Under the pieces are notes generated by a model. That model was not told the origin of the DNA and did not search any database. It saw nothing but the letters and a program-made list of their open reading frames with translations. Position numbers and translations under genes: made by a program. Below, piece after piece: positions 12,952 to 62,780 of a stretch of DNA of 64,000 bases (position 1 is the first letter of the stretch; the number at the start of each line of letters is the position of its first letter). Source of the stretch: a virus (Duplodnaviria > Heunggongvirae > Uroviricota > Caudoviricetes); the IMG/VR virus record IMGVR_UViG_3300012156_000175; one strand, written 5' to 3'.

Positions 12952-13023
12952 ACCGTTGTCGCCAAGCGGTAAGGCACAGGACTTTGACTCCTGCAGTCGT
13001 TGGTTCAAATCCAACCAGCGGTG
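12952..13023 (+). tRNA. tRNA-Gln (anticodon TTG)
   Basis: Manual cloverleaf: acceptor ACCGTTG/CAGCGGT (one G-U), D-loop AAGCGGTAA, anticodon loop CTTTGAC, T-arm GTTGG-TTCAAAT-CCAAC. Followed by a terminator. Confidence 0.8.
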
Positions 13024-13027
13024 TTAA

Positions 13028-22769: not shown

Positions 22770-22843
22770 GGATCATTAGCTCAGTTGGTCAGAGCATCCG
22801 GCTCATAACCGGACGGTCTAGGGTTCGAGTCCCTAATGATCCA
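22770..22843 (+). tRNA. tRNA-Met (anticodon CAT; elongator or Ile2-lysidine type, not initiator)
   Basis: Cloverleaf: GGATCAT/ATGATCC acceptor with G1:C72 paired, D-loop AGTTGGTCA, anticodon loop CTCATAA, T-arm TAGGG-TTCGAGT-CCCTA. Confidence 0.8.
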
Positions 22844-35133: not shown

Positions 35134-35313
35134 TTGAAAAGAACTTTATTATTATTTAATGTAGTAAAATATCTGGGATCTATGAATCATCAGTGGAAAC
35201 TAATTAATACGAACTTTGACTCCAATCCTAAAACAGTTGATATAACACAAGACGGTGTAACAAATACCTTTGAATTAAATGAAAATGGAACTATGTTGAT
35301 GGGAGAAGTGTAA
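35134..35313 (+). CDS. small protein (59 aa; TTG start, alternative ATG at 35182) translationally coupled to the PTH2 gene
   Basis: RBS AAAGGGAGAGAAGAA precedes the TTG. Its stop overlaps the next start (TAATGA). Confidence 0.3.
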   Translation: MKRTLLLFNVVKYLGSMNHQWKLINTNFDSNPKTVDITQDGVTNTFELNENGTMLMGEV

Positions 35314-35747
35314 TGATAAAGCAATATATTGTTATAAGAAAAGACCTACCGATGTCTCCAGGAAAATTAGCAGCTCAAACATCTCATGCAAGTTTAGCTT
35401 TTTTAACCAATATGATGGCTTCAAATATCAAACGGATTGATGATACATATGAATGTAATATTTCTATTGATAAATATCTGTGGGAAAATTGGATGAGTCC
35501 GGATGCTAGTTTCACAAAAGTAACCTTAGGGATTAAAAACAGAGACAAAATGATAAAGCTTATTGAAAAAGCAAAAAGCTTTGGTTTTGAAGAAGGTAAG
35601 GATTTCTTTTGTATTCATGATGCCGCAAAGACAGAGCTATCTGATTTTATAGAAGAAGATGGGTCTGTTCTTACCTGTGTAGGCTTTAAGCCTAGAGAAG
35701 AATCTGAATTAAGAGAATTACTAAAGCGATTGCAATTATTTAAATAG
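35313..35747 (+). CDS. peptidyl-tRNA hydrolase PTH2-family protein
   Basis: YIVIRKDLPMSPGKLAAQTSHAS matches the PTH2 core (VVR.DL.M..GK.AAQ..HA). Confidence 0.6.
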   Translation: MIKQYIVIRKDLPMSPGKLAAQTSHASLAFLTNMMASNIKRIDDTYECNISIDKYLWENWMSPDASFTKVTLGIKNRDKMIKLIEKAKSFGFEEGKDFFCIHDAAKTELSDFIEEDGSVLTCVGFKPREESELRELLKRLQLFK

Positions 35748-48383: not shown

Positions 48384-48902
48384 ATGAAGAAAGTGTTAGT
48401 AGTGGTAGATATGCAAAACGATTTTATTACTGGTTCATTAGGAAACGATGATTGCAAGGCAGTGGTTCCACATGTTGTAAGTGAAACAAAACGATGTATA
48501 GAAGAGGGCTATGACATTATTTTTACTATGGATTCGCATGGGCAAGATTATCTTGATACACAAGAAGGGAAAAAGCTGCCAGTACCTCATTGTATTTCAG
48601 GTTCAAACGGAGAAAGGATTATTCCAGAATTAGAAATCTTCAAACCATTTTCATATTTCAAAAAACAAACTTTTGGAAGTGTGACTCTGGTTCAATCTTT
48701 GGCTAAAAGTCAATATGACGAAATTGAATTAATTGGAGTATGCAGTGAGATTTGTGTGGTTTCAAATGCACTGTTGATTAAGGCTTTTTTGCCAGAAGCC
48801 AAGGTGAAAGTAATAAGTTCCTGCTGTGCTGGAGTTACACCAGAAAGTCATAAAGCAGCATTGGAAACAATGAAAATGTGCCAAATTGAAGTGGTTTCAT
48901 AA
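48384..48902 (+). CDS. pncA: nicotinamidase / isochorismatase-family cysteine hydrolase
   Basis: VVVDMQNDF, catalytic Cys in GVCSEICV, and a K residue. 172 aa. Confidence 0.7.
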   Translation: MKKVLVVVDMQNDFITGSLGNDDCKAVVPHVVSETKRCIEEGYDIIFTMDSHGQDYLDTQEGKKLPVPHCISGSNGERIIPELEIFKPFSYFKKQTFGSVTLVQSLAKSQYDEIELIGVCSEICVVSNALLIKAFLPEAKVKVISSCCAGVTPESHKAALETMKMCQIEVVS

Positions 48903-48952
48903 AAAAACGAATTATAAATTAAGAAAAAGAATAATGAAAATGAGGTGGACTT

Positions 48953-49156
48953 GTGGATAGAAAATATATTGCTGTGTATAACTGCGATAATGGCTATACT
49001 TGTTCGTGCTGCGGAAAACAATGGGATGAAGTAGTAGAGGATATATGGGATGATGAGAGATACACAGAAGAAGATATTGTAAATTATTATAAGAAGGCAG
49101 AGCATGACGAAAAAGAATTGAGTAACGTTTATAAGGTTGAGAAGGAGTTGTGTTGA
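48953..49156 (+). CDS. small Cys-rich protein (67 aa)
   Basis: GAGGTG RBS with a TTG start. CDNGYTCSCCGKQW. Confidence 0.35.
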   Translation: MDRKYIAVYNCDNGYTCSCCGKQWDEVVEDIWDDERYTEEDIVNYYKKAEHDEKELSNVYKVEKELC

Positions 49157-49344
49157 AAGGAAAGATGATAAGAGAAAGGGAAATGATGACATGAATGAAA
49201 AAAAACGGAGATATGACGATGAAAGGCATAACAATATTCCAGAATGGACGAAAACGCAAAAAGAAAATCAGGCTAGAAACGATTTTCTTTCGTTCACAGA
49301 TAAGAAAATGAAACGATAATTAAATATTGGATGAAGGAGTAAAT

Positions 49345-49581
49345 ATGAAAATCGTTATATCAGACAAAGAGGTGTCATTGATTGAATGTCCAATAGGGCT
49401 GTTTTTAGTAGTAGATAGCGAAGAGTTATGTGTTAAGACCGAGTATGGTAATAACAATGGTGGTGTGGATTGCTATATTGTATCGAGCGGAGAATTTCTA
49501 TCGTGTGATGGGAAAACTAGAAATTTTGCAGGATGTAAAACAATCTTGGTAAGGCCGGTAACCATTGAAGGTTCAGAGTGA
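49345..49581 (+). CDS. small protein (78 aa)
   Basis: RBS GAAGGAGTAAAT precedes the ATG. Confidence 0.35.
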   Translation: MKIVISDKEVSLIECPIGLFLVVDSEELCVKTEYGNNNGGVDCYIVSSGEFLSCDGKTRNFAGCKTILVRPVTIEGSE

Positions 49582-49604
49582 ATTAGAATTTATGGAGGTT
49601 AGAA

Positions 49605-49763
49605 ATGAACAATGAGCAATGGACAGCGGACGGTAAATGTAATGTGTGTCGCAGGAAAAATTACTGTAATAACCCATGCAAGGCAGCAAAGGAAAGACAG
49701 CAATATGAACTCAGATGCGCAGTGAGCCGGGCAATGTTTGAAACAATGATAAAGTCAAAGTAG
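49605..49763 (+). CDS. small Cys-rich basic protein (52 aa)
   Basis: RBS TATGGAGGTTAGAA precedes the ATG. CNVCRRKNYCNNPC. Confidence 0.3.
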   Translation: MNNEQWTADGKCNVCRRKNYCNNPCKAAKERQQYELRCAVSRAMFETMIKSK

Positions 49764-49863
49764 TAAAGTAACTAAATTAAAGTTTTAAAAGAGAGAATGA
49801 ACCATGGACGACGGTGGCAATAAAAATGATTATCGGAGGAATGACTAAGAAAGGAGTTATAAC

Positions 49864-50034
49864 ATGGACATAGAGTCAGTCTGTGGGAACTGTGGCGAAA
49901 CAGTCACTGAAACCATATATAAAGAAGAAATACATACTGTAGAGGAGCATTATGATTGTCATAATTGCGGATATAGATATCATTGGGCTTATGGTTTGCT
50001 TCTCCCGGAATCAACAGATTATCCCGAAGATTAA
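49864..50034 (+). CDS. small zinc-ribbon protein (56 aa)
   Basis: RBS AAAGGAGTTATAAC precedes the ATG. CGNCG…CHNCG. Confidence 0.35.
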   Translation: MDIESVCGNCGETVTETIYKEEIHTVEEHYDCHNCGYRYHWAYGLLLPESTDYPED

Positions 50035-50136
50035 TTTTTAGAGTGATGAAAGAATAAAATCTCTAATGTTGATATGAACTAGAGAATCATTAAATAAAAA
50101 GAATACCTTGTGAAAGAATAGATTGGAGAAAAAACA

Positions 50137-51594
50137 ATGAAACAAAGTAGAGAAAGAAATTTATCAATGGTAATGGATTTTTATGAAATGACTATGTGCA
50201 ATGGATACTTCAAAGCAGTGGACCATGAAACCAAGGTGGCGTTTGAAGTGTTTTATAGGAAGAATCCAGACAATGGAGGATTTGCTATTTTTGCAGGTCT
50301 GAAGCAAATCATTGAATATATTCAAGATTTACATTTTACGGATGATGATATTGAATATTTCAGACAGCAGAATCTGTTTGATGAGGATTTTCTTAAGTAT
50401 TTGCAGAACTTTAAATTTACTGGTGATGTGTGGGCTTTTCAGGAAGGTGAAATTATGTATCCAAACGAGCCAGTAATCACGGTGATTGCACCATTATTAG
50501 AAGCACAGCTGGTAGAAACAGCAATTTTATTGGAGTTTAATCATCAGTCTCTAATTGCGACCAAAACAAATCGTATTGTGGAAGCTGCTGATGGAAGAAC
50601 TGTCTCTGATTTTGGAGCTCGCCGGGCTCATAATGTGGATGCAGCAGTATACGGAGCCAGAGCGGCTTATATTGGTGGAGCAAGTAGCACAGCTACAGTT
50701 TTGGCTGGTCAGATGTTTGGAATTCCAATCAATGGAACAACGGCTCATAGTTGGGTGATGTTTTTTCCAGATGAATATAGTGCATTTAAGGCTTATGCCG
50801 AGGTTTATCCAAACGCAACAACCTTGCTAGTTGATACTTATGATGTATTACGAAGTGGCGTGCCAAATGCTATCCGGGTTGCTAAGGAAGTATTAGAGCC
50901 TATGGGTTGCCGGTTAAAAGGAATTCGATTAGATAGTGGTGATTTGGCATATCTATCTAAAATAGCAAGAAAAACGCTGGATGAATCCGGATTAACTGAT
51001 TGTAAGATTGTGGCATCCAATTCTCTGGACGAATTCACAATTCGTTCTTTACTGAATCAAGGTGCGCAGATTGATATCTTTGGAGTTGGAGAAAGATTAA
51101 TTACCGCCAAATCAGACCCTGTCTTTGGCGGTGTCTATAAGCTTTGTGCTGTAGAAAAGGATGGAATTTTTGAGCCAAGAATTAAAATTTCAGAAAATAT
51201 TGAGAAAGTAACAAATCCTGGACTAAAGCGTGTCTGGAGAATTGTTAATAAAGAAGGATATGGCATTGGAGAGTTATTAACTTTATGGGATGAAAATCCA
51301 AATAGTGATGAGTCTTATGAAGTAGTGGATACCAGAAATCCATATAAAAAGGTAGTTTTGGATCATTGCACCTTTGAACCAGTTCAGAAATTATTTATTC
51401 ACCATGGAGAAGAAACTCCGGATTGGGAATGTCAAAAAGAATATGACATCTCATTTATTAGAGACAAAGTAAGAGTCAAAGTTAATGCTAAGGTGTGGGA
51501 AGAGGAAAAACGTTTTGAAAATCCGCATTTACACTATTTGGATATGTCACCGGCATTATATAAGTTGAAAATAGATTTATTAAATGCCCATTAG
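50137..51594 (+). CDS. pncB: nicotinate phosphoribosyltransferase
   Basis: 485 aa. Firmicutes PncB-type N-terminus (MDFYEMTMCNGYF), and the typical pncA-pncB neighbourhood. Confidence 0.85.
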   Translation: MKQSRERNLSMVMDFYEMTMCNGYFKAVDHETKVAFEVFYRKNPDNGGFAIFAGLKQIIEYIQDLHFTDDDIEYFRQQNLFDEDFLKYLQNFKFTGDVWAFQEGEIMYPNEPVITVIAPLLEAQLVETAILLEFNHQSLIATKTNRIVEAADGRTVSDFGARRAHNVDAAVYGARAAYIGGASSTATVLAGQMFGIPINGTTAHSWVMFFPDEYSAFKAYAEVYPNATTLLVDTYDVLRSGVPNAIRVAKEVLEPMGCRLKGIRLDSGDLAYLSKIARKTLDESGLTDCKIVASNSLDEFTIRSLLNQGAQIDIFGVGERLITAKSDPVFGGVYKLCAVEKDGIFEPRIKISENIEKVTNPGLKRVWRIVNKEGYGIGELLTLWDENPNSDESYEVVDTRNPYKKVVLDHCTFEPVQKLFIHHGEETPDWECQKEYDISFIRDKVRVKVNAKVWEEEKRFENPHLHYLDMSPALYKLKIDLLNAH

Positions 51595-52920: not shown

Positions 52921-54006
52921 ATGAAAAAAATAAAAACCTTAGCAGTAACAATGATTTTTTTAGTATTATTTAGTTTCGCCGCTTTTGCCGAAACCAAAAT
53001 CACTTCAGCTTCAATTACAATGAGGGAGTCAAAGGCGGATGCAGGGCAGATTTATGAAGTAGAGCTATATGTAAGTTCCAGTTACTATGAAATGACAAAT
53101 TGTGAATTGTCGAAAGACTATAGTGAGTGGAAACCAGGAAGTAAGGTAACATATAGTATTACTCTCGAACCCAAAGATGGGTATAAATTTGATGCGTCAA
53201 AACTTAAAAAGATTTCAGTGACAAATGGTGAAGTGGCCAGTAAAAGTATAAAAAGCAATAAAATTACGTTAAAAGTAAATTACGTTCCAAAGATAACCTT
53301 AGAAACGCCTCAGAATATCTATTTTGAAAATGAATATTTAGCTGTGTGGGATAAAGTTGATTACTGTAAGATGTATGAAGTTCAAATTCTGAAGGAAAAT
53401 GATAGTGGTGATTACAGAAATTACAAAACAGTTAAGGTGACAACACCAAAGATTGATTTATCTGTCTATGCTACAGATGAATATGAAATCAGTTTCAAGG
53501 TTAGAGCCATAGCCAAAGATTCGGATCAGTCAAAATATCTTAAATCGTCAGAATGGATTAGCACAAATGATTCGGTTTCCGCTGATAATAATACTTCATA
53601 TGGTACTTTTTCCGGAAGTGGTGATAATATGACTTTTAAAGATTCAGACGGAAAAGTCTCTGGATGGCAGCAACTTAATGGTAATTGGTATTATTTCGAT
53701 CCTAACAATGGCATGAAAGCAGTTGTGTCGAATTGGGTGTATCGGAATAATAAATGGTTCTATTGTAATGACTATGGAATTATGCAGACTGGTTGGTTAC
53801 AGCTTAATGGATATTGGTACTATTTGAACCCTGTTTCTGATGGAACAAGAGGTGCTGCTGTTACAGGATGGTTTTGTGTTGGTCCTAGTGGTCCATGGTA
53901 TTATTTCCAAGAGGGTGCCGAGGGAACCATTCCAGAATGTGCAATGTATGCTGATAGAACTACTCCAGACGGATATTATGTAGATGGAAGTGGTGTTTGG
54001 CAATAA
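52921..54006 (+). CDS. secreted cell-wall-binding repeat protein
   Basis: Signal peptide MKKIKTLAVTMIFLVLFSFAAFA. C-terminal GW/YY repeats (GWQQLNGNWYYFDPNNG, GWLQLNGYWYYLNP). Confidence 0.65.
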   Translation: MKKIKTLAVTMIFLVLFSFAAFAETKITSASITMRESKADAGQIYEVELYVSSSYYEMTNCELSKDYSEWKPGSKVTYSITLEPKDGYKFDASKLKKISVTNGEVASKSIKSNKITLKVNYVPKITLETPQNIYFENEYLAVWDKVDYCKMYEVQILKENDSGDYRNYKTVKVTTPKIDLSVYATDEYEISFKVRAIAKDSDQSKYLKSSEWISTNDSVSADNNTSYGTFSGSGDNMTFKDSDGKVSGWQQLNGNWYYFDPNNGMKAVVSNWVYRNNKWFYCNDYGIMQTGWLQLNGYWYYLNPVSDGTRGAAVTGWFCVGPSGPWYYFQEGAEGTIPECAMYADRTTPDGYYVDGSGVWQ

Positions 54007-54010
54007 TTTT

Positions 54011-54038
54011 TAAAAGCTGAAATTAATCAGCTTTTTTA
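54011..54038 (+). terminator. rho-independent terminator (AAAAGCTGAAATTAATCAGCTTTT)
   Basis: Hairpin plus T-run. Confidence 0.55.
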
Positions 54039-54380
54039 TTTTATAAAATATTTTCATAAAAATAGGTTACATTTTCATTTAAATCAATCATAATATATTT
54101 AGAATACAAAAAGTGTTAGATGCTGTCCATACATTTGTCTATTTGAGCAAACAAGTTCGTGGTTGTGCCCTGACAACCATAAATAATAGATGACAAGCTT
54201 CCACCCTTAAAGAATTAATGCCAGGGAATCAATCAGCTCATGTGCTTACAGCAAAAAAATGAAAGGAAAATAAAACTATGTTAAAAATAACTATCGTAGA
54301 CAACATTATTAATGTTCCAGTAGTAGCTATGCATAATGATATGGATAGATTTTTTGGCATGGATATTTTCGCTTTTCATT

Positions 54381-54409
54381 TTGACCGAAGAAAGACCAAT
54401 AATATGAAT
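54381..54409 (+). promoter_or_regulatory. putative sigma-A promoter for the tRNA array (TTGACC - 17 nt - ATGAAT)
   Basis: A -35 consensus hexamer and a weak -10, about 60 nt upstream of the first tRNA. Confidence 0.2.
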
Positions 54410-54470
54410 ATAAGTTATCAAGGATAACTACATAAACATATTTGAGTCGCTTCGGCGGCTCTATTTTTTT

Positions 54471-54543
54471 GGCTTTGTAGGAGAATGGTTAATCCGTCCG
54501 GCTGTCGCCCGGAAGATTGTGGGTTCGAGTCCCATCAAAGTCG
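54471..54543 (+). tRNA. tRNA-Asp (GTC)
   Basis: Acceptor GGCTTTG/CAAAGTC (one G-U), anticodon loop CTGTCGC, T-arm GTGGG-TTCGAGT-CCCAT, discriminator G. The D-stem has one mismatch. Confidence 0.7.
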
Positions 54544-54547
54544 TTAA

Positions 54548-54619
54548 TCCCAGGTAGCTCAACGGTAGAGCATCTGGCTGTTAACCAGAGGGATGCAGGT
54601 TCGAGTCCTGCCCTTGGAG
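54548..54619 (+). tRNA. tRNA-Asn (GTT)
   Basis: U1:A72 start as in Firmicutes Asn. D-arm GCTC-AACGGTA-GAGC, anticodon loop CTGTTAA, T-arm GCAGG-TTCGAGT-CCTGC. C4:U69 mismatch in the acceptor. Confidence 0.7.
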
Positions 54620-54623
54620 CTTT

Positions 54624-54696
54624 GGATTGGTAGATCAGTTGGTAAAGCAGAGCGCTGAAAATTCTCGTGCATCTGATCCGATTCCAGTCCGACCCT
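54624..54696 (+). pseudogene. degenerate tRNA-Phe-like element (tRNA pseudogene)
   Basis: Starts GGATTGG-TA-GATC-AGTTGGTAAA like the intact Phe gene at 55257 and retains the CTGAAAA anticodon loop. The D-stem, anticodon stem and T-arm cannot be paired. Confidence 0.3.
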
Positions 54697-54768
54697 GTCC
54701 TCATAGTTCAATGGATAGAACATGGGTCTTCTAAACCTAAAATAAGAGTTCGATTCTCTTTGAGGACA
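54697..54768 (+). tRNA. tRNA-Arg (TCT)
   Basis: Perfect acceptor GTCCTCA/TGAGGAC, D-arm GTTC-AATGGATA-GAAC, anticodon loop CTTCTAA, T-arm AAGAG-TTCGATT-CTCTT. Confidence 0.8.
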
Positions 54769-54771
54769 TCT

Positions 54772-54847
54772 TGGGATGTAGTTCAGTTGGCAGAATGCCT
54801 GATTTGGTTTTATTGTGATGTTGTGGGTTTGAAATATGACATTCCAG
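54772..54847 (+). pseudogene. degenerate tRNA-like element (tRNA-Pro-like 5-prime half; the acceptor ends still pair, the anticodon and T arms are destroyed)
   Basis: TGGGATG-TA-GTTC-AGTTGGCA-GAAT-G-CCTGA-TTTGG matches the 5-prime half of tRNA-Pro(TGG) at 55099. The 3-prime end CATTCCA pairs with the 5-prime end. There is no valid anticodon stem or T stem. Confidence 0.3.
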
Positions 54848-54944
54848 ATTACATTACAACTATATCTGTAGATTATGGTAAAGAACACTGCATGGGAAGC
54901 ACTAGTTTAAGCTCAGACAGGAGTGTTTAGTAACAAATATTTTC

Positions 54945-55017
54945 GGGACCATAGTTCTAATGGGAGAACAGCTGCTTTGCAAGCAGACGGTTGAGGGTTC
55001 AAGTCCCTCTGGTTCCA
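54945..55017 (+). tRNA. tRNA-Ala (TGC)
   Basis: G3:U70 identity pair present. Anticodon loop TTTGCAA. T-arm GAGGG-TTCAAGT-CCCTC. Discriminator A. Confidence 0.8.
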
Positions 55018-55021
55018 CTTT

Positions 55022-55094
55022 GCCCGATTAGCTCAACTGGGAGAGTGCTTCCCTTACAAGGAAGAAGTTGCAGGTTCAAACCCTGCATCGGGTA
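55022..55094 (+). tRNA. tRNA-Val (TAC)
   Basis: Acceptor GCCCGAT/ATCGGGT, D-arm GCTC-AACTGGGA-GAGT, anticodon loop CTTACAA, T-arm GCAGG-TTCAAAC-CCTGC. Confidence 0.8.
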
Positions 55095-55098
55095 CTAA

Positions 55099-55173
55099 CG
55101 GAATGTAGGGTAATTGGTAACCCGCCTGATTTGGGATCAGGACATATTGCAGGTTCGAGACCTGTCATTCCGA
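55099..55173 (+). tRNA. tRNA-Pro (TGG), unusual 7-nt variable loop
   Basis: Perfect acceptor CGGAATG/CATTCCG, D-arm GGGT-AATTGGTA-ACCC, anticodon stem-loop CCTGA-TTTGGGA-TCAGG, variable ACATATT, T-arm GCAGG-TTCGAGA-CCTGT. Confidence 0.7.
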
Positions 55174-55178
55174 TGTTT

Positions 55179-55252
55179 AGTGGATTAGTTCAGTTGGTTA
55201 GAATGTCCGTCTGATAAGCGGGAGGTCACCAGTTCGACTCTGGTATCCACTA
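55179..55252 (+). tRNA. tRNA-Ile (GAT)
   Basis: Perfect acceptor AGTGGAT/ATCCACT, D-arm GTTC-AGTTGGTTA-GAAT, anticodon loop CTGATAA, T-arm ACCAG-TTCGACT-CTGGT. Confidence 0.8.
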
Positions 55253-55256
55253 TTAA

Positions 55257-55329
55257 GGATTGTAAGCTAATCTGGTGAAAGCACTGGACTGAAAATCCAG
55301 GGAGCCAGGATCGAAACCTGGACAATCCA
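55257..55329 (+). tRNA. tRNA-Phe (GAA), atypical T-loop (A at position 54)
   Basis: Perfect acceptor GGATTGT/ACAATCC, anticodon stem-loop CTGGA-CTGAAAA-TCCAG, T-arm CCAGG-ATCGAAA-CCTGG. The D-stem is only 3 bp. Confidence 0.7.
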
Positions 55330-55333
55330 TTAT

Positions 55334-55405
55334 GCAGATGTAGTTTAGTGGCTAAAACGTTACCTTGCCAAGGTGAAATTGAGGGTTCGATTCCCTTCAT
55401 TTGCT
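55334..55405 (+). tRNA. tRNA-Gly (GCC)
   Basis: Perfect acceptor GCAGATG/CATTTGC, D-arm GTTT-AGTGGCTA-AAAC, anticodon loop TTGCCAA, T-arm GAGGG-TTCGATT-CCCTT. Confidence 0.8.
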
Positions 55406-55408
55406 TAT

Positions 55409-55482
55409 ATCAGTATAGCTTAGTAGGTTAAAGCATCAGATTCATATCCTGAAGACCGCTGGTTCGATTCCAGCTACTGATA
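55409..55482 (+). tRNA. tRNA-Met/Ile2 (CAT), A31:C39 mismatch in the anticodon stem
   Basis: Perfect acceptor ATCAGTA/TACTGAT, D-arm GCTT-AGTAGGTTA-AAGC, anticodon loop TTCATAT, T-arm GCTGG-TTCGATT-CCAGC. The A1:U72 pair is not the initiator type. Confidence 0.7.
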
Positions 55483-55489
55483 CTTTTTA

Positions 55490-55561
55490 TGCAATTTAGT
55501 TAAATGGATAGAACAAAGGTTTCCTAAACTTTAAATATGGGTTCGATTCCCATAATTGCAA
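55490..55561 (+). tRNA. tRNA-Arg (CCT)
   Basis: Perfect acceptor TGCAATT/AATTGCA, anticodon stem-loop AAGGT-TTCCTAA-ACTTT, T-arm ATGGG-TTCGATT-CCCAT. Confidence 0.75.
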
Positions 55562-55563
55562 CT

Positions 55564-55635
55564 GTGGCCGTGGCTCAATGGTACAGCAGCGGATTGTGGA
55601 TCCGCCAATTGAGGGTTCAAATCCCTTCGGCCACC
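55564..55635 (+). tRNA. tRNA-His (GTG), no genomically encoded G-1
   Basis: Perfect acceptor GTGGCCG/CGGCCAC with discriminator C73. Anticodon stem-loop GCGGA-TTGTGGA-TCCGC. T-arm GAGGG-TTCAAAT-CCCTT. The base preceding position 1 is T. Confidence 0.7.
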
Positions 55636-55766
55636 TGAATTGTTTAAAAGATGATTATTTGATTTCTTACATTTAAACCACCTAATTATAGTGGTTTTGT
55701 TTTTTTTGTCTAAATTAATCACATACTAAAAGAGATAAAAAAGCTTATAGGAGATTAAATATAAAT

Positions 55767-58379: not shown

Positions 58380-58700
58380 ACATGACAATAAAGAAAGGTA
58401 ATATTAAATGTCAATAACTCACTGCCTCTAGAGGCGAGAGCTTGTAAAAGCTTGATTGACTAGTCTAAGCCTGAGGAAACTCTTTGGATTTTCTTCGGAC
58501 TCCGTTATTTAAATCATGACACTCGTGGATGTCGTCCTAATCCACGACCCTGTCATCTGTGATTAAACAGTCTTTAGAGTAGGGACAGTGTTGCAGATGT
58601 AAAAAGTTTAAATAACATTGACGAAGGACACCTAACCGGAGGAACATTCTGTTTCTTTGGCATTATTTATTCAGTTAAATCAGAAAGGAGTACCTATGGT
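58380..58700 (+). ncRNA. putative IscB omega-RNA (structured guide RNA scaffold overlapping the iscB 5-prime end)
   Basis: About 300 nt of non-coding, relatively GC-rich, hairpin-rich sequence (GCCTCTAGAGGC, GTGGATGTCGTCCTAATCCAC) lies directly upstream of iscB. IscB loci are known to encode their omega-RNA here. Boundaries are not determinable by eye. Confidence 0.45.
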
Positions 58701-59988
58701 ATATGTCATAAATATGACCGGACAGCCACTTATGCCTACCTCAAGGTACGGCAAAGTAAAGCACCTTCTTAAGGAAGGCAAAGCTGTTGTAGTAAACCGC
58801 TGTCCATTCACGATTAAGTTAACGTATGAGAGCACAACTCATACTCAGGAGGTAACCCTGGGAGTTGATGCCGGCTCCAAAACAATCGGGCTGTCGGCAA
58901 CGACTCGGAACAAGGAATTGTATTCCTCTGAAGTAGAACTCCGTACCGATATAGTGGATTTGTTATCCACCAGAAGAACACTTAGACGGAGTCGAAGAAA
59001 CCGTAAAACCAGATATCGCAAGCCCAGGTTTCTAAACAGAGTCAGGAGCAAGAACAAGGGCTGGCTGGCACCATCTTTAGAGAACAAAATCAACAGTCAC
59101 TTAAAGGTAATAGAGGGAGTACACAAACTGCTTCCGATTACAAAGATAATTGTTGAAGTGGCCTCTTTTGATATTCAAAAGATTAAGAATCCCGAAGCGT
59201 CAGGAACTGATTACCAGCAGGGTGATATGCTTGGTTTCTGGAACGTAAGGGAGTATGTATTACACAGGGACGGACATGTCTGCCAGCACTGTAAGGGCAA
59301 GTCAAAAGATAAGATACTGAATGTGCATCATATAGAGTCAAGGAAGAACGGCGGAAATGCACCAAACAATCTGATCACGCTTTGTGAAACCTGCCATAAC
59401 GACTATCATAAGGGCAGGATTGAACTCAAAATGAAGCGAGGAGTTTCCTTTCGGGATGCAGCGTTTATGGGAATCATGAGATGGGCTTTTTATGAGCGGA
59501 TTAAGCTCTTGTATCCAGACGTTTCCCTAACCTATAGATATATCACAAAGCACACCCGTATTAAGAATAACATCCCAAAGACCCATTGTGCAGATGCATA
59601 CTGCATAACGAGTAATGTTGAAGCAAACTCAACTTGTCGAGGTTCGAACCACATCGCAGATGTGGTAACAAAGAGACTTGGATTTTACTACTACCAGAAA
59701 AAGGTACGCTGCCATAACCGTCAGCTGCATAAGATGAATCCGAAGAAGGATATCCGCAAGTTAAATCAAGCACCTAAGTACGTATTTGGGTATCAATTGT
59801 TTGATAAGGTGAAATACAAGAACCAAGAGGCATTTATATTTGGACGCAGAAGTACGGGATATTTCGACATCCGTAAACGGGATGGAACAAAGGTTCATGC
59901 GGGTATCAATCAAAAAGAATTAAAGTTATTAGAAACCAGGAAATCTTACTTAATAGAAAGGAGGCCGGCGATTTCTCTCACTACCTAA
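58696..59988 (+). CDS. iscB: IscB RNA-guided endonuclease (IS200/IS605-associated OMEGA nuclease with PLMP, RuvC-I/II/III and HNH)
   Basis: N-terminal MVYVINMTGQPLMPTSRYGKVKHLLKEGKA (PLMP domain). RuvC-I LGVDAGSKTIGLSA. Arg-rich bridge RRTLRRSRRNRKTRYRKPRF. HNH CQHC…NVHHIESRKNGGNAPNNLITLCETCHNDYH. RuvC-III HCADAY. The AAAGGAG RBS places the start at 58696. Confidence 0.85.
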   Translation: MVYVINMTGQPLMPTSRYGKVKHLLKEGKAVVVNRCPFTIKLTYESTTHTQEVTLGVDAGSKTIGLSATTRNKELYSSEVELRTDIVDLLSTRRTLRRSRRNRKTRYRKPRFLNRVRSKNKGWLAPSLENKINSHLKVIEGVHKLLPITKIIVEVASFDIQKIKNPEASGTDYQQGDMLGFWNVREYVLHRDGHVCQHCKGKSKDKILNVHHIESRKNGGNAPNNLITLCETCHNDYHKGRIELKMKRGVSFRDAAFMGIMRWAFYERIKLLYPDVSLTYRYITKHTRIKNNIPKTHCADAYCITSNVEANSTCRGSNHIADVVTKRLGFYYYQKKVRCHNRQLHKMNPKKDIRKLNQAPKYVFGYQLFDKVKYKNQEAFIFGRRSTGYFDIRKRDGTKVHAGINQKELKLLETRKSYLIERRPAISLTT

Positions 59989-60017
59989 GAGGTGGGAGTA
60001 TCTTCGCCTAATTTTTG

Positions 60018-61343
60018 ATGATAACATTATTGAATAACAAAAGAACTAGAAAAAAAATACTAGTAATAATAACTTTTTTGGTTTTTGTTAGAATTGGAAG
60101 TCTTATACCAGTACCAGGAGTTAATACAGATTTTATGAAAAATCTTGTTTCCGGATCTGAATTTCAATTCATAAACACCATTATGGGTAATTCCTTGTCT
60201 CACATGTCACTGTTTGCACTAAGTATAAGCCCATATATTACAGCATCAATTATTATTCAACTTATGACTTTAGTTTTGCCTAGGATAGAAGATCTTAGCA
60301 GAGAAGGAAAGTCAGGCCAAGAAAAATTACAAAAGATAATTAACTATACTGGAATAACAATAGGTTTCATTCAATCCTTGTGCATGGCTGTTGGATTTGG
60401 AATGAAGGGTTTGTTTATTACATATTCCCTACAATCAGTGTTATTAGCAACGTGTGTGTGGACAATGGGATCTGCCATACTCATTATACTAAGTGAAAAA
60501 ATAACTAAGCTTGACATGGGTAATGGAGTTTCCTATGTGTTAATGCTTAATATATTATCGGCCCTGTCTACCGATGTGATTGTTGTATTTGAAAGATTAT
60601 GTATAAATAACACAATGTTCCAAATTGTAGTATGTATATCAATTGTTGTTTTTGCATTTGCTCTATTAGTAGCAGTTAGTGTATTCTTGAATGTATCTGA
60701 AAAACGAATAGCCATTAAATTCTCAAGAAAACGTGCCAATGAAGAAATTGTTGATTATCTACCCATCCCAATGAATATTTGTAATGTTATGCCAGTTATA
60801 TTCACTGGAAGTATTTTGGGATTACTATCACTATTATCAGTATTAACGAATAATAATATTTTGAGAACTATATCAACCTATTTAACTCAAACAAATTGGT
60901 TTCAACTACATAACTTACAATATACAATAGGTGTATTTGTGTATATCGCTTTAGTATTTTACTTTGCTCATTTCTATTTGGATGTAACTTTCAACTCTGA
61001 TGAAATAGCCTATCGATTAAAACAACAAGGTGCTACAATTCCGGGAATTCGGCCAGGTATTACAACCGCTGAATATCTAAAAGAAAACGCAAATAAAATA
61101 ATGATTTTTGGTAATATAATTGTATTAGCAATCGTATTAGGAACTGTTTTTGTTTGTAACATATTAAACATTGGAATCCTTAGTGTTGGTGGAACCTCAA
61201 TGCTAATAGTAACAAATGTTGTTATTGATAATTATAAAAAAATAAAAGTAACTGCTCAAAGTATAAAAAGCAGTAGTTATGTTCGTACTAATAAAAAACA
61301 ATCATCTTTGTTCAGAGTGAAAGGAGTCAGACATGCTAAATAA
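60018..61343 (+). CDS. secY: SecY-family translocon subunit outside the ribosomal-protein operon (SecY2-like accessory SecY)
   Basis: LIPVPGVN and the ISPYITASIIIQLM SecY signature, with ten predicted TM segments. It is flanked by iscB and clpP, not by rplO/adk. Confidence 0.75.
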   Translation: MITLLNNKRTRKKILVIITFLVFVRIGSLIPVPGVNTDFMKNLVSGSEFQFINTIMGNSLSHMSLFALSISPYITASIIIQLMTLVLPRIEDLSREGKSGQEKLQKIINYTGITIGFIQSLCMAVGFGMKGLFITYSLQSVLLATCVWTMGSAILIILSEKITKLDMGNGVSYVLMLNILSALSTDVIVVFERLCINNTMFQIVVCISIVVFAFALLVAVSVFLNVSEKRIAIKFSRKRANEEIVDYLPIPMNICNVMPVIFTGSILGLLSLLSVLTNNNILRTISTYLTQTNWFQLHNLQYTIGVFVYIALVFYFAHFYLDVTFNSDEIAYRLKQQGATIPGIRPGITTAEYLKENANKIMIFGNIIVLAIVLGTVFVCNILNIGILSVGGTSMLIVTNVVIDNYKKIKVTAQSIKSSSYVRTNKKQSSLFRVKGVRHAK

Positions 61344-62270: not shown

Positions 62271-62780
62271 ATGAAGGTTGCAATTACAGGAAAAAACATC
62301 ACGGTCACAGATGGCATGGAAGAGAGCATCATTAAACAGCTTGGGAAGTGTGAAAAATATCTGGGTCCAGATTCTAAAGTGAAAGTTCTAATACGAACTG
62401 TAAAAACTGATAAGATTATTGAGGTCACAGTTCCGGTATCAAAAGGAAAAGTAATTCGTGTAGAAAAACGGAGTGACGACTTCTATGAGGCAGTTAATTT
62501 AGTCGAAGAAGTTCTTACCAGAAAGCTACGAAAAGAAAAAGAAAAGAAACTGGATAAAAAGAGAATGGCTTTAAAAGAAACGTTAGAGGCAGTGTTAGAG
62601 CCGGCAATTAAGAGGAATAAAAGATTTAACATTGAAATGATGACACCAGATGAGGCTATTAGCGAAATGGAATCTCTAGACCATGATTTTCATCTATTTA
62701 TGAATATAGAAGATGGTACAGTTGGCGTGGTATACCGTAGAAAAGATGAAGGGTATGGTTTGTTATCGGCAAATTTGTAA
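62271..62780 (+). CDS. hpf: ribosome hibernation-promoting factor (long form)
   Basis: N-terminal ITGKNITVTDGMEESIIKQL (YfiA/HPF fold). The C-terminal extension domain is present. Confidence 0.85.
   Translation: MKVAITGKNITVTDGMEESIIKQLGKCEKYLGPDSKVKVLIRTVKTDKIIEVTVPVSKGKVIRVEKRSDDFYEAVNLVEEVLTRKLRKEKEKKLDKKRMALKETLEAVLEPAIKRNKRFNIEMMTPDEAISEMESLDHDFHLFMNIEDGTVGVVYRRKDEGYGLLSANL

What the first reader, a model, noticed from the sequence alone, without database searches (positions are those of the whole stretch)
54471..55635. tRNA array of 12 genes plus two decayed tRNA-like fragments; several members carry atypical structural features
Manual folding gives Asp, Asn, Arg(TCT), Ala, Val, Pro, Ile, Phe, Gly, Met/Ile2(CAT), Arg(CCT) and His. 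There are two degenerate elements. The first is a Phe-like copy (54624..54696) sharing its 5-prime end and anticodon loop with the intact Phe gene. The second is a Pro-like 5-prime half (54772..54847) whose acceptor ends still pair but whose anticodon and T arms are gone. Several intact genes are non-canonical: His lacks an encoded G-1, Phe has A54 in the T-loop and a 3-bp D-stem, Pro has a 7-nt variable loop, Asn has a C4:U69 mismatch, and the CAT gene has an A31:C39 mismatch. A tandem array mixing slightly aberrant tRNAs with pseudo-tRNAs resembles tRNA arrays carried by mobile elements or phages. These are often interpreted as a counter to anticodon-nuclease defences or codon-bias compensation, rather than a core rrn-associated array. 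IscB and an LCP gene lie just downstream.
Basis: seen in the sequence. Interest (0 to 1): 0.5.

Follow-up and report, generated by a model that had tools for sequence, protein, structure and literature searches.

The report
Self-sensing tRNA operon on giant element
A real 12-gene tRNA cluster carried by a giant low-GC mobile element of gut Clostridia appears to be switched on by a tiny upstream "test" gene, built almost only from the amino acids whose tRNAs the cluster encodes, a kind of control not previously described for tRNA genes.

Summary

The context is not a core chromosome. The window belongs to a family of 32-37% GC elements, with scaffolds up to 454 kb, found in gut metagenomes and in Hungatella- and Lacrimispora-labelled assemblies. 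All carry a homologous array at the same locus.

The "aberrant" features are inherited traits, not decay. They include no G-1 in tRNA-His, A8/A54 in tRNA-Phe and A31·C39 in the CAT gene. Across 10 ortholog sets, 102 changed base pairs stay paired and 6 are broken.

The new result lies just upstream. A conserved promoter-like block is followed by a Shine-Dalgarno-led 49-codon ORF (54278-54427), then a terminator hairpin whose T-run abuts tRNA-Asp. Thirty-three consecutive ORF residues come only from the 11 amino acids served by the array. Two other arrays with different tRNA sets have their own leaders that match their own sets.

My best explanation is ribosome-mediated attenuation that senses the array's own tRNAs. 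The layout and composition match are shown. The antiterminator and the regulatory outcome are inferred. The type of replicon (plasmid-like or phage) is unresolved.

The parts
54066..54094 (+). Promoter-like site (-35 GTTACA, 17 nt, -10 CATAAT) inside a block conserved upstream of all eight arrays examined
   Evidence: Consensus scan. The alignment of 8 arrays shows an invariant ATCATAATATA with a TTAACA/GTTACA/TTGTCA hexamer 17-18 nt upstream. The function is inferred.
54095..54277 (+). Long conserved 5' untranslated region, with the Shine-Dalgarno AGGA at 54264-54267, 10 nt before the ATG
   Evidence: It is 80% identical over 242 nt to the region upstream of the second array of the same contig. 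Parts are conserved in L002, L088 and L092. There is no Rfam match even at E up to 10. Its role is unknown.
54278..54427 (+). Leader ORF, 49 codons: MLKITIVDNIINVPVVAMHNDMDRFFGMDIFAFHFDRRKTNNMNISYQG
   Evidence: 40 of 48 residues, and an unbroken run of 33, come from the 11 amino acids served by the array (binomial P 7e-6; run P < 5e-6 by simulation). It is the only one of 210 small ORFs in the window with a run of 20 or more. It is conserved as 9 protein clusters. In the core, 186 of 188 aligned cells are in the set although 16 of 24 columns vary.
54386..54390 (+). CGAAG, the proposed 5' strand of an antiterminator that pairs with CUUCG (54450-54454) of the terminator
   Evidence: Predicted by folding with the terminator's 3' arm absent. 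It is conserved at nucleotide level in four orthologs while the encoded residue changes (R/S). L092 has a different terminator and a matching different segment. Shuffle controls give only 1-19%, so this part is inferred.
54402..54441 (+). Intermediate hairpin spanning the leader stop codon (TAA 54425-54427)
   Evidence: RNAfold predictions in the window and in L002, L088 and L095.
54444..54470 (+). Intrinsic-terminator-like hairpin GAGTCGC-TTCG-GCGGCTC plus a run of seven T that ends one base before tRNA-Asp
   Evidence: Terminator scan. It is 100% conserved in L002, L088, L095 and L104. Hairpin dG is -10.6 kcal/mol. There is no room for a promoter between it and the first tRNA.
54471..54543 (+). 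tRNA-Asp (GTC)
   Evidence: 64.5 bits. Orthologs in 3 relatives show 10 double-compensatory changes.
54548..54619 (+). tRNA-Asn (GTT), with a C4·U69 mismatch
   Evidence: 68.9 bits. Structure. No close ortholog in relatives, at most 70% identity.
54624..54696 (+). Pseudo-tRNA-Phe
   Evidence: 20.7 bits, below the threshold of 29. D, anticodon and T stems are broken, U55 is C and G53:C61 is lost, read from the sequence. It is 80% identical to the intact Phe gene in the same slot of L104.
54697..54768 (+). tRNA-Arg (TCT), reads AGA
   Evidence: 71.0 bits. 11 double-compensatory changes among orthologs. AGA makes up 51-52% of the element's Arg codons.
54772..54847 (+). Pseudo-tRNA-Pro: the acceptor ends still pair, the anticodon-stem 3' strand and the T arm are lost
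   Evidence: 16.2 bits. Relatives have a Pro gene after Arg-TCT at this slot. Identity to any Pro gene is only 53-63%.
54945..55017 (+). tRNA-Ala (TGC), G3·U70 present
   Evidence: 60.0 bits. Structure. 95% identical to the L092 ortholog.
55022..55094 (+). tRNA-Val (TAC)
   Evidence: 66.4 bits. Orthologs.
55099..55173 (+). tRNA-Pro (TGG), with a 7-nt variable loop
   Evidence: 60.3 bits. A 2-nt insertion relative to its orthologs, and 6 double-compensatory changes.
55179..55252 (+). tRNA-Ile (GAT)
   Evidence: 65.2 bits. 99% identical to the L092 ortholog.
55257..55329 (+). tRNA-Phe (GAA), with A8, A54 and a 3-bp D stem
   Evidence: 57.9 bits. The L092 ortholog has the same oddities, with 3 double-compensatory stem changes.
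55334..55405 (+). tRNA-Gly (GCC)
   Evidence: 65.6 bits. The leader uses the rare codon GGC, which is cognate to this anticodon.
55409..55482 (+). tRNA with anticodon CAT (elongator Met or Ile2; not an initiator: A1:U72 is paired and there is no GGG/CCC anticodon stem). The A31·C39 mismatch is conserved.
   Evidence: 69.4 bits. A31·C39 is present in all four orthologs, with 5 double-compensatory changes elsewhere.
55490..55561 (+). tRNA-Arg (CCT)
   Evidence: 63.0 bits. 11 double-compensatory changes.
55564..55635 (+). tRNA-His (GTG), with no encoded G-1 (T at 55563) and C73
   Evidence: 63.9 bits. T at -1 in all five family members. G at -1 in five chromosomal Clostridia loci, which are three distinct sequences.
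55675..55707 (+). Terminator-like hairpin (AAACCAC/GTGGTTT) plus T-run that closes the operon
   Evidence: Sequence and RNAfold. It falls below the GC criterion of the scan.

Best explanation
The 12 genes form an accessory tRNA operon on a giant (up to about 454 kb), low-GC, probably extrachromosomal element of gut Lachnospiraceae-type Clostridia. The operon supplies tRNAs that fit the element's own A/T-rich codon usage.

Proposed mechanism:
- Transcription starts at a conserved promoter about 380 nt upstream of the first tRNA.
- It then runs through a short translated leader ORF and meets an intrinsic terminator that ends one base before tRNA-Asp.
- The leader's codons are almost all read by the operon's own tRNAs.
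- When those tRNAs are plentiful, the ribosome runs to the stop codon, the terminator forms, and the array stays off.
- When any of them is scarce, the ribosome stalls in the leader. Scarcity could come from a host pool that does not fit the element's codons, from tRNA cleavage or from stress.
- During a stall, an upstream segment pairs with the terminator's 5' arm and loop, RNA polymerase reads through, and the polycistronic precursor is made.
- The precursor is then cut by RNase P and RNase Z and given CCA.

This would be negative feedback on tRNA supply.

Shown: the genes, their structural conservation, the element context, the layout, and the match between each leader and its own array.

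Inferred: translation of the leader, the antiterminator, the direction of regulation, and extrachromosomal status.
For: Genes and function:
- 12 tRNAs score 57.9-71 bits.
- In 10 ortholog sets, 68 double-compensatory and 34 single pair-preserving changes stand against 6 disruptive ones.

Context:
- The 152.7-kb source contig is 32% GC.
- The 83 kb I could read has mostly Pfam-less, same-strand genes plus Wadjet, Lar, Macro-SIR2, two IscB copies and PTH2. It has no ribosomal proteins.
- A distinct NAPRTase clade (74-81% identity against 69% or less for ordinary homologues) marks relatives on contigs of 151-454 kb. They share the synteny SecA, NAD-salvage genes, CW-binding protein, array, LCP, SecY.
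- The arrays are homologous.

Codon fit:
- AGA 52% against 16%, CCA 51% against 11%, TTA 46% against 8% and ATA 34% against 19%, for the element against proxy chromosomal loci.

Attenuator layout:
- A promoter-like block is invariant in 8 arrays.
- A Shine-Dalgarno-led ORF is conserved in 9 clusters.
- A terminator abuts the first tRNA and is 100% conserved in 5 members.

Composition match, in three independent arrays:
- Leader 1: 40 of 48 residues in its own set, with a run of 33.
- Leader 2 (array Leu/Gln/Lys/Glu/Arg/Trp/Thr): 20 of 30, run of 13, P 5.5e-5.
- Leader 3 (array Ser/Asn/Tyr/Thr/Gly/Met): 21 of 33, P 8.9e-5.
- The cross-matrix is diagonal-dominant.
- Each leader contains every amino acid of its own array.
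- Replacements in the leader-1 core stay in the set (186 of 188 cells) even when radical.
- L092 has no Gly in its leader core and no tRNA-Gly in its array.

Switch:
- Sequestration of the terminator's 5' arm is -5.6 to -10.7 kcal/mol with a ribosome stalled mid-ORF, against -1.0 to -4.7 with a ribosome at the stop codon, in 5 of 7 leaders.
- L092 has a different terminator and a correspondingly different partner segment.
Against: - There are no expression data of any kind.
- The antiterminator is weak. In dinucleotide shuffles the observed sequestration is reached in 1-19% of cases for six leaders and 51% for leader 2. L002 and leader 2 show no predicted ribosome-dependent switch.
- I formed the composition hypothesis after seeing leader 1. 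Leaders 2 and 3 were then tested as predictions, but there are only three independent arrays.
- Leader-peptide attenuation needs transcription-translation coupling, which from general knowledge is less prevalent in Bacillota.
- The small ORF could be an ordinary small protein gene with its own terminator.
- The 184-223-nt 5' UTR is unexplained and could carry a different control.
- L002 keeps one Gly codon in its leader although its array has lost tRNA-Gly.
- The replicon type is unproven. I could read only 83 of 152.7 kb of the contig, and host assignment rests on assembly labels.
Confidence: 0.6

Rival explanations
1. This is an ordinary mobile-element or phage tRNA cluster that is expressed constitutively or by leaky read-through. 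It serves codon compensation and/or replaces tRNAs cut by host anticodon nucleases. The upstream small ORF is an unrelated small protein gene, the hairpin is merely its terminator, and the composition match is a coincidence of biased small peptides.
For: tRNA clusters on phages and plasmids are well known (PMC4758250, PMC5966550, PMC10264068, PMC11555353). Codon fit is good. The antiterminator is not statistically compelling. Family members carry RtcB, an AlaX-like gene and a CCA-adding-like gene, which suit a tRNA repair or counter-defence theme.
Against: Three arrays with different tRNA sets each have a leader that matches its own set, with run P values from below 5e-6 to 4.5e-3. Replacements in the leader core are radical yet stay within the set, which is not how a folded small protein evolves. 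The terminator abuts the first tRNA with no intervening promoter in any member.
Confidence: 0.22
2. This is a core chromosomal tRNA operon of an uncultured low-GC bacterium, and its oddities are lineage-specific housekeeping traits.
For: The neighbours include SecA, SecY, SecE, ClpP, HPF, NAPRTase and LCP. All 12 genes score well. The array is conserved at one locus.
Against: - There are no ribosomal proteins, rRNA, RNA polymerase or aaRS genes in the 83 kb read.
- Most ORFs have no Pfam hit.
- Wadjet, Lar, Macro-SIR2, a TraG-like fragment and two IscB copies are present.
- Relatives sit in assemblies labelled Hungatella and Lacrimispora at 32-34% GC, while 79 chromosomal loci with the ordinary NAPRTase have a median GC of 46%.
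- SecY is not in a ribosomal-protein operon.
- Scaffolds of about 453.6 kb recur.
- The tRNAs are 59-81% identical to chromosomal Clostridia tRNAs, which are 86-99% alike.
Confidence: 0.04
3. The array is a decaying, largely non-functional relic, a tRNA graveyard, as the pseudo-tRNAs and aberrant features suggest.
For: There are two clear pseudo-tRNAs. Window-specific blemishes include Asn C4·U69, the Pro 7-nt variable loop and Ala G27·A43. Different relatives have lost different genes.
Against: 102 pair-preserving changes stand against 6 disruptive ones across 10 ortholog sets. Anticodons and identity elements are intact, for example G3·U70 in Ala and C73 in His. Scores are only about 3 bits below chromosomal arrays.
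Confidence: 0.03
4. The conserved leader acts as an RNA that senses tRNA directly, in the manner of a T-box, or binds a protein repressor, as TrcR does at the Anabaena trn operon. The ORF is then incidental.
For: The 5' UTR is long and conserved, and its function is unknown. The promoter block is invariant and could hold an operator. The Anabaena precedent is PMC10272220.
Against: There is no T-box or other Rfam match, even at E up to 10. A T-box senses a single tRNA, whereas the leaders reflect 6-11 amino acids. The Shine-Dalgarno and start codon are conserved in all members. The in-frame composition signal cannot be explained by an RNA-only element.
Confidence: 0.08

Closest known systems
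Leader-peptide (ribosome-mediated) transcription attenuation of amino-acid operons and of pheST (trp, his, thr, ilv, pheA, pheST). This is general knowledge; pheL is described in PMC3082878.
   Same: A short Shine-Dalgarno-led ORF is enriched in the codons whose decoding is being sensed. An intrinsic terminator lies between the ORF and the regulated genes. A predicted alternative pairing involves the terminator's 5' arm and lies near the ORF end.
   Different: The regulated genes are tRNAs, not biosynthetic enzymes or a synthetase. The leader samples 6-11 different amino acids, matching a whole array, and not runs of one to three. It occurs on a mobile element of Bacillota. The antiterminator is not established. 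I found no description of such control of a tRNA operon.
Anabaena sp. PCC 7120 trn operon: 26 tRNA genes on the delta megaplasmid (PMC10272220).
   Same: It is an accessory, plasmid-borne tRNA operon that includes pseudogenes, additional to the housekeeping tRNAs. It is silent normally and induced under translational stress, which is the behaviour I predict here.
   Different: It is controlled by the RHH repressor TrcR binding at the -10 box. That paper never mentions a leader peptide or attenuation. It belongs to a different phylum and is not homologous.
tRNA array units of prokaryotes (Tran et al., PMC4758250; Mycobacterium arrays, PMC5966550).
   Same: tRNA genes are densely packed, horizontally acquired, and subject to rearrangement, duplication and deletion. 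They are mostly found in Firmicutes.
   Different: The formal definition needs at least 20 genes, and this array has 12 (25 in two arrays 9 kb apart). 98% of those units are chromosomal. No regulatory leader has been reported.
Phage tRNA clusters that compensate codon usage or evade anticodon nucleases (PMC10264068, PMC11555353).
   Same: The tRNA lineage is divergent, with unusual anticodon-loop and stem features. The set includes Asp, Asn and His. The element is rich in counter-defence genes.
   Different: No phage hallmark genes were seen and no relatives exist in IMG/VR or INPHARED. Nuclease evasion was not tested.
Giant plasmid-like extrachromosomal elements of Bacillota: Inocles (PMC12340149) and Hodors (PMC12934698).
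   Same: They are hundreds of kb long, were overlooked by plasmid and phage tools, and carry many cell-wall genes (here LCP, PBP, YkuD). Inocles are about 32% GC, IS-rich and carry tRNAs.
   Different: Inocles are oral Streptococcus elements defined by the InoC gene, which I did not see here. Hodors are 44.6-47.1% GC and that paper never mentions tRNAs. The family here has its own NAPRTase, leader and array markers.

Membership tests
Bacterial tRNA genes (Rfam RF00005) | Match to the tRNA covariance model at or above the gathering score (29 bits), with a cloverleaf and an anticodon | tested here: met
   12 genes score 57.9-71.0 bits. The two fragments score 20.7 and 16.2 bits and fail the threshold.
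tRNA array unit sensu Tran et al. 2015 (PMC4758250) | At least 20 tRNA genes in one region | tested here: not met
   There are 12 genes here, or 14 with the pseudogenes. The next array of 13 genes lies about 9 kb away.
tRNA array unit sensu Tran et al. 2015 (PMC4758250) | Density of at least 2 tRNA genes per kb | tested here: met
   12 genes in 1,165 bp is 10.3 per kb.
Leader-peptide transcription attenuator | A short translatable ORF with a ribosome-binding site, upstream of and in the same transcript as the regulated genes | tested here: met
   ORF 54278-54427 has AGGA 10 nt upstream. The Shine-Dalgarno and ATG are conserved in all members. There is no promoter space between the terminator and tRNA-Asp. 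Translation itself is not shown.
Leader-peptide transcription attenuator | The leader is enriched in codons whose decoding is the signal | tested here: met
   Three leader-array pairs match their own sets (P 7e-6, 1.7e-3 and 8.9e-5; run P values below 5e-6, 5.5e-5 and 4.5e-3).
Leader-peptide transcription attenuator | An intrinsic terminator lies between the leader and the structural genes | tested here: met
   A 7-bp GC-rich stem with a TTCG loop and seven T at 54444-54470. Equivalent hairpins with T-runs precede arrays 2 and 3.
Leader-peptide transcription attenuator | A mutually exclusive antiterminator whose formation depends on where the ribosome sits | tested here: inconclusive
   It is predicted in 5 of 7 leaders. 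It beats shuffles clearly only for L092 (1%), the others reach 3-19%, and leader 2 and L002 show no switch.
Leader-peptide transcription attenuator | Read-through increases when the cognate charged tRNA is limiting | not testable with these tools
   This needs Term-seq or reporter experiments.
Phage-encoded tRNA cluster | Located in a genome with virion or packaging hallmark genes (capsid, portal, terminase) | tested here: inconclusive
   None appears among the Pfam hits for 83 kb of the contig or about 100 kb of relatives. 3 of 10 hypothetical proteins hit PHROGs of unknown or other function. There are no relatives in IMG/VR or INPHARED. About 70 kb of the contig is unread.
Inocle giant extrachromosomal elements (PMC12340149) | The InoC marker gene (about 454 aa, replication-relaxation domain PF13814) | tested here: inconclusive
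   PF13814 is absent from every gene table I retrieved, but most of each element is unread. Habitat and host differ: gut with Lachnospiraceae labels here, oral Streptococcus for Inocles.
Hodor conjugative megaplasmids (PMC12934698) | GC of about 45-47%, with Rep_3, ParAB, T4SS and multiple sortases | tested here: not met
   The family here is 32-37% GC. Only a TraG-like fragment was seen, with no Rep_3, ParAB or sortases in the regions read.
T-box riboswitch | Match to the T-box leader model | tested here: not met
   No T-box hit at E up to 10 in 53990-54475, and none at the gathering score in the whole window.

The most novel reading that the evidence does not exclude
A giant extrachromosomal element runs its own demand-driven tRNA supply. 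Its tRNA genes are split into at least three operons by amino-acid set. Each operon is gated by a leader ORF that acts as a multi-codon 'test message' for exactly the tRNAs behind it, so that ribosome stalling on any of them opens a terminator. This would be the first leader-peptide attenuator known to control tRNA genes. It would also be a built-in sensor of tRNA depletion, for example by host anticodon nucleases or a mismatched host pool. Together with the G-1-less tRNA-His and the A54 tRNA-Phe, it points to a semi-autonomous translation toolkit on a mobile element.
Probability: 0.5. Interest if true: 0.88.

Novelty: new variant of a known kind. Interest (0 to 1): 0.78.

Why it matters
Why mobile elements and phages carry tRNA genes has been debated for 50 years, between codon compensation and defence evasion (PMC10264068). 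How such arrays are regulated is known in only one case, TrcR in Anabaena (PMC10272220).

A leader ORF whose codon content mirrors the array behind it would show that the element measures the usable pool of exactly those tRNAs and tops it up on demand. That would make the 'what are they for' question directly testable: whatever stalls ribosomes on the leader is the selective condition.

It would also extend classical attenuation to RNA genes and to multi-amino-acid sensing. It would provide compact, programmable tRNA-pool sensors for synthetic biology. It flags a previously undescribed family of roughly 450-kb elements in human-gut Clostridia.

The conserved G-1-less tRNA-His with C73 raises a separate question, namely how that tRNA is charged.

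Tried and rejected
1. Phage origin. blastn of the array against 50,697 phage records gave only single-tRNA matches covering 13% or less. Four IMG/VR scans (odd Phe, hairpin, NAPRTase, leader motif) found nothing. The best phage NAPRTase match was 54% or less.
2. Known plasmid. PLSDB gave only generic tRNA matches and NAPRTase at 53% or less.
3. Two JGI metagenome scans (hairpin, leader motif) found nothing.
4. Hodor and Inocle membership. Hodor is rejected on GC. Inocle is unresolved because no InoC was seen.
5. Core chromosomal array. Rejected on context and on tRNA divergence.
6. 'Aberrant means decaying'. Rejected for the intact genes by covariation.
7. T-box or another known RNA in the leader. 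No Rfam match.
8. Antiterminator significance. Shuffle controls were mostly not significant, so I downgraded it to inferred.
Conservation of leaders 2 and 3 is therefore untested.
10. The identity of the CAT gene (Met or Ile2) could not be settled. It is not an initiator. Its loop, TTCATAT/C, resembles Firmicutes elongator Met from memory, while ATA makes up 34% of Ile codons.
11. I could not walk the remaining ~70 kb of the contig, or the relatives' contigs, because look-ups are limited to window proteins and capped.

Full report
**1. The observation**

ARAGORN and the Rfam tRNA model agree on 12 tRNA genes on the + strand from 54471 to 55635. In order they are Asp-GTC, Asn-GTT, Arg-TCT, Ala-TGC, Val-TAC, Pro-TGG, Ile-GAT, Phe-GAA, Gly-GCC, CAT, Arg-CCT and His-GTG. 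Scores are 57.9-71.0 bits against a gathering score of 29. Spacers are 1-6 nt and no gene encodes CCA.

54624-54696 scores 20.7 bits and 54772-54847 scores 16.2 bits.

The cloverleaves confirm each oddity:
- Asn has C4·U69.
- Pro has a 7-nt variable loop.
- Phe has A54 and a 3-bp D stem, and also A8.
- The CAT gene has A31·C39.
- His has T at -1 with C73.

LCP and HEARO RNA plus IscB lie downstream.

**2. Context**

The window is 32% GC, with nearly all genes on one strand. It comes from a 152,721-bp metagenome contig. By looking up window proteins I could read 83 kb of that contig.

Most ORFs there have no Pfam hit. The rest include:
- Wadjet JetABC, with a separate JetD_C.
- DnaG primase, a TraG/VirD4-like fragment, RNase J and RarA.
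- A split 5'-3' exonuclease, RNase H, NAD-ligase and UvrD.
- Lar, Macro-SIR2, ADP-ribosylglycohydrolase, PTH2, HSP20 and two Band_7 genes.
- YkuD, SecA, a nicotinamidase-NAPRTase pair and LCP.
- Two IscB copies with their HEARO RNAs.
- SecY with a SecE-like gene, ClpP, HPF and dCMP deaminase.

I saw no ribosomal protein, rRNA, RNA polymerase or virion gene.

NAPRTase gave the way in to relatives. One clade is 74-81% identical, while ordinary Clostridia enzymes are 69% or less. Members of that clade lie on contigs of 151 kb (assembly labelled Lacrimispora amygdalina), 396 kb (labelled Hungatella hathewayi), 440 kb, and recurrent scaffolds of about 453.6 kb from human-gut metagenomes. All are 32-37% GC, against a median of 46% for 79 chromosomal loci that carry the ordinary enzyme. 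They are syntenic with the window over at least 18 kb.

Most of them carry a homologous tRNA array between the same CW-binding protein gene and LCP.

Nothing related exists in IMG/VR, INPHARED, PLSDB or the JGI contigs searched.

The family resembles in kind the recently described giant plasmid-like elements of Bacillota. It does not fit Hodors (GC 44.6-47.1%, no tRNAs mentioned). It cannot be assigned to Inocles, which are oral Streptococcus elements defined by InoC, a gene I did not see here. Whether it is a plasmid, a phage or an island remains open.

**3. Are the tRNAs functional?**

Ten of the 12 genes have clear orthologs in relatives. I mapped substitutions onto the cloverleaf. Pairs changed on both sides yet still paired number 68. 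Pairs changed on one side and still paired number 34. Disrupted pairs number only 6. These are comparisons with the window sequence, so they are not independent events, but the ratio leaves little doubt that the RNAs are selected as folded tRNAs.

The features that looked aberrant are inherited:
- T at -1 of His with C73 is present in all five family members. Five chromosomal Clostridia loci, three distinct sequences, all have G.
- The A8/A54 Phe is shared with L092, alongside three compensatory stem changes.
- A31·C39 of the CAT gene is present in all four orthologs.

Blemishes specific to the window are the 2-nt insertion in the Pro variable loop, the Asn C4·U69 mismatch and Ala G27·A43.

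The family's tRNAs are only 59-81% identical to chromosomal Clostridia tRNAs with the same anticodon. Those chromosomal tRNAs are 86-99% alike across families. Model scores are only about 3 bits lower than in chromosomal arrays.

The pseudogenes are real relics. ψPhe is 80% identical to the intact Phe gene in the same slot (Asp-Phe-Ile-Arg) of L104. ψPro sits where relatives have a Pro gene after Arg-TCT. Different relatives have lost different copies, so gene birth and death in the array is fast.

**4. What the set is for**

The readable part of the contig holds 29 tRNA genes for 18 amino acids. They are two singletons, this array, a second array of 13 genes that starts about 700 bp past the window's end, and two more.

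The element's codon usage is strongly A/T-ending, and the arrays supply the tRNAs that read its preferred codons. Compared with proxy chromosomal loci:

| Codon | Element | Proxy chromosomal loci |
|---|---|---|
| AGA | 52% of Arg | 16% |
| CCA | 51% | 11% |
| TTA | 46% | 8% |
| CAA | 61% | 15% |
| ACA | 49% | 23% |
| ATA | 34% | 19% |

Codon compensation is therefore supported, with the caveat that the true host is known only from assembly labels. Anticodon-nuclease evasion could not be tested.

**5. The upstream leader**

The scan for transcription signals found a strong terminator-like hairpin, GAGTCGC-TTCG-GCGGCTC followed by seven T. Its T-run ends at 54470, one base before tRNA-Asp. It is 100% conserved in four relatives whose proteins are only 58-79% identical. 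No promoter fits between it and the tRNAs, so array transcripts must read through it.

Sixteen nucleotides upstream of the hairpin ends a 49-codon ORF (54278-54427) with AGGA 10 nt before its ATG. The ORF and its Shine-Dalgarno are conserved in every relative. The peptide forms a family of just nine clusters among 5.8 billion proteins, all unannotated.

A promoter-like block lies 87-223 nt upstream of the ATG. Its core, ATCATAATATA, is invariant, with a -35-like hexamer 17-18 nt before it, in all eight arrays examined.

The peptide is MLKITIVDNIINVPVVAMHNDMDRFFGMDIFAFHFDRRKTNNMNISYQG. Forty of its 48 post-initiator residues, and an unbroken run of 33, belong to the 11 amino acids whose tRNAs the array encodes (D N R A V P I F G M H), and all 11 occur. 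That set makes up 52% of the element's proteome. The binomial P is 7e-6, and no run that long appeared in 200,000 simulations. Of 210 small ORFs in the window, only this one has a run of 20 or more.

Because I formed this idea after seeing the sequence, I tested it on other arrays.
- Array 2 of the same contig encodes Leu, Gln, Lys, Glu, Arg, Trp and Thr tRNAs. It has its own Shine-Dalgarno-led 31-codon ORF, MRYFITLLQEYLKQETTLKTQEWLVCCAIIE, followed by a hairpin with a T-run. It shares a homologous promoter and 5' UTR, 80% identical over 242 nt.
- An array in relative L100 encodes Ser, Asn, Tyr, Thr, Gly and Met tRNAs. It has MFNINTNSNSIYSNQTITSNGYYGFFTMKNIEHD, a UUCG-loop terminator and the same promoter block.

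Each leader matches its own set. The fractions in own set are 0.83, 0.67 and 0.64, against 0.19-0.58 for the other sets. The P values are 7e-6, 1.7e-3 and 8.9e-5. Each leader also contains every amino acid of its array.

At codon level the cores are read by the array's own anticodons, including the otherwise rare GGC for tRNA-Gly(GCC).

Among eight leader-1 variants, 16 of 24 core columns vary, some radically (D/M/N, H/I/N, D/G). Even so, 186 of 188 cells stay in the set, whereas the N- and C-terminal parts do not. That is selection on which tRNA is used, not on the peptide. L092 has no Gly in its core and no tRNA-Gly in its array. L002 is an exception, with one Gly codon although its tRNA-Gly has been lost.

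**6. Mechanism**

The layout is that of a leader-peptide attenuator. I folded each region with the terminator's 3' arm not yet transcribed. In this state the 5' arm and loop pair with a segment near the ORF end.
- In four leader-1 orthologs the segment is CGAAG (54386-54390). It is conserved at nucleotide level while the codon's meaning changes.
- In L092, which has a different terminator, the segment is AAACAGUCUC.
- In leader 3 the segment lies immediately after the stop codon.

A footprint at the stop codon weakens the pairing, while a footprint in the ORF core allows it. Dinucleotide shuffles show that this is clearly better than chance only for L092 (1%) and borderline for three others. 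L002 and leader 2 show no predicted switch. The antiterminator, and hence the direction of regulation, is inferred.

I commit to the classical direction: stalling gives read-through. It yields sensible negative feedback, in which the array is made when its tRNAs are limiting and shut off when they are plentiful.

No T-box or other Rfam family matches the leader.

**7. Comparison with what is known**

tRNA arrays on plasmids and phages are known (PMC4758250, PMC5966550). This one does not meet the formal criterion of at least 20 genes.

The Anabaena trn operon is a plasmid-borne accessory array induced by translational stress, but it works through the TrcR repressor, and that paper never mentions a leader peptide or attenuation.

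Leader-peptide attenuation is classical for amino-acid operons and pheST. A full-text search found no case that controls a tRNA operon.

I therefore rate the array itself as a new member of a known kind. The array with its leader I rate as a new variant of a known kind.

**8. Open points**

- How a tRNA-His with C73 but no encoded G-1 is charged. No Thg1-like gene was seen in what I could read.
- Whether the CAT gene is Met or Ile2.
- The role of the conserved 184-nt 5' UTR.
- The nature and host of the element.
- Whether leaders 2 and 3 are conserved.

**Verdict**

The mobile-element interpretation is broadly right, but 'aberrant' does not mean 'decaying' here. The most interesting content is the leader ORF and terminator just upstream of the reported coordinates. 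Confidence is about 0.9 that this is a functional accessory tRNA operon of a giant low-GC element, and about 0.6 for the full attenuation model.

Noticed in passing
just beyond the window end: L082 11371-12917 (= window coordinates 64714-66260); leader ORF L082 11185-11280: A second array of 13 tRNAs: Leu-TAA, Gln-TTG, 'Stop'-TTA, Lys-TTT x2, Gln-CTG, Glu-CTC, Arg-ACG, Leu-TAG, Trp, Lys-CTT, Glu-TTC and Thr-TGT. It includes a suppressor-like tRNA(TTA) with a weak T arm, and 83-84-nt 'Gln' and 'Lys' genes with long variable arms. These may be re-anticodoned class II tRNAs. Two further tRNAs (Glu, Cys) lie at L082 15721-16009.
   Followed up: partly
window 58410-59988; L082 13156-14091: HEARO (omega) RNA plus an intact IscB lies 2.8 kb downstream of array 1. 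A second HEARO (102 bits) plus a truncated IscB (218 aa, RRXRR only) lies directly after array 2. So both arrays have an IscB element downstream.
   Followed up: no
window 44216-46567, 60015-61343 and the following ~150 nt: The element carries its own SecA, SecY and a 50-aa SecE-like gene. They lie outside any ribosomal-protein operon and are conserved in relatives (L092, L095, L104). This may be an element-borne secretion set that serves its many cell-wall proteins.
   Followed up: no
L087 887-6043 (contig upstream of the window) and window 23034-23783 (-): Wadjet JetA, JetB and JetC are encoded together, but the only JetD-like gene (JetD_C domain, 249 aa) lies about 30 kb away on the opposite strand.
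   Followed up: no
window 35313-35747, 62271-62780, 2774-4432; L088 17685-18104; L100 5957-7315; L089 2464-3711: The family carries a translation and RNA-repair toolkit. It includes archaeal/eukaryotic-type peptidyl-tRNA hydrolase PTH2, a ribosome hibernation factor, RNase J, an AlaX-like (tRNA-synt_2c) ORF embedded inside the L088 array, a CCA-adding-enzyme-like gene and RtcB.
   Followed up: no
L002 18338-18410, L088 16421-16493, L092 16355-16427, compared with window 54471-54543: The tRNA-Asp orthologs in three relatives have a pyrimidine at position 37 (anticodon loop CUGUCUA), whereas the window copy has G37 C38. This is an unusual anticodon-loop difference within one ortholog group.
   Followed up: no
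L002 18932-19046; L092 16891-16975; L095 18056-18144; L104 11027-11115: One tRNA-Ala match spans 115 nt. The Ile(TAT) genes are 85-89 nt long, so they carry insertions, or possibly introns, within otherwise good tRNA matches.
   Followed up: no
window 48384-51594, 33483-34580; L082 16321-17226: An NAD-related module is present: nicotinamidase-like isochorismatase plus NAPRTase (with NAD synthase in relatives), Macro-SIR2 and ADP-ribosylglycohydrolase. It would suit countering NAD-depleting or ADP-ribosylating defences.
   Followed up: no
window 12951-13024 and 22770-22843: Two isolated tRNA genes, Gln-TTG and a second CAT gene (72.6 bits, G1:C72, CTCATAA loop), lack the promoter/leader module found at the arrays.
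   Followed up: partly
L104 (scaffold of 453,587 bp) and 12 similar scaffolds: The same element recurs at almost identical length (453,587 and 453,594 bp) in several human-gut metagenomes, which suggests complete replicons of about 454 kb.
   Followed up: no
window 54095-54277: The 184-nt 5' UTR between the promoter-like block and the leader ORF is conserved, including ATCAGCTCATGTGCTTACAGCAAA just before the Shine-Dalgarno. It is duplicated upstream of array 2. It has no Rfam match and no assigned role.
   Followed up: partly
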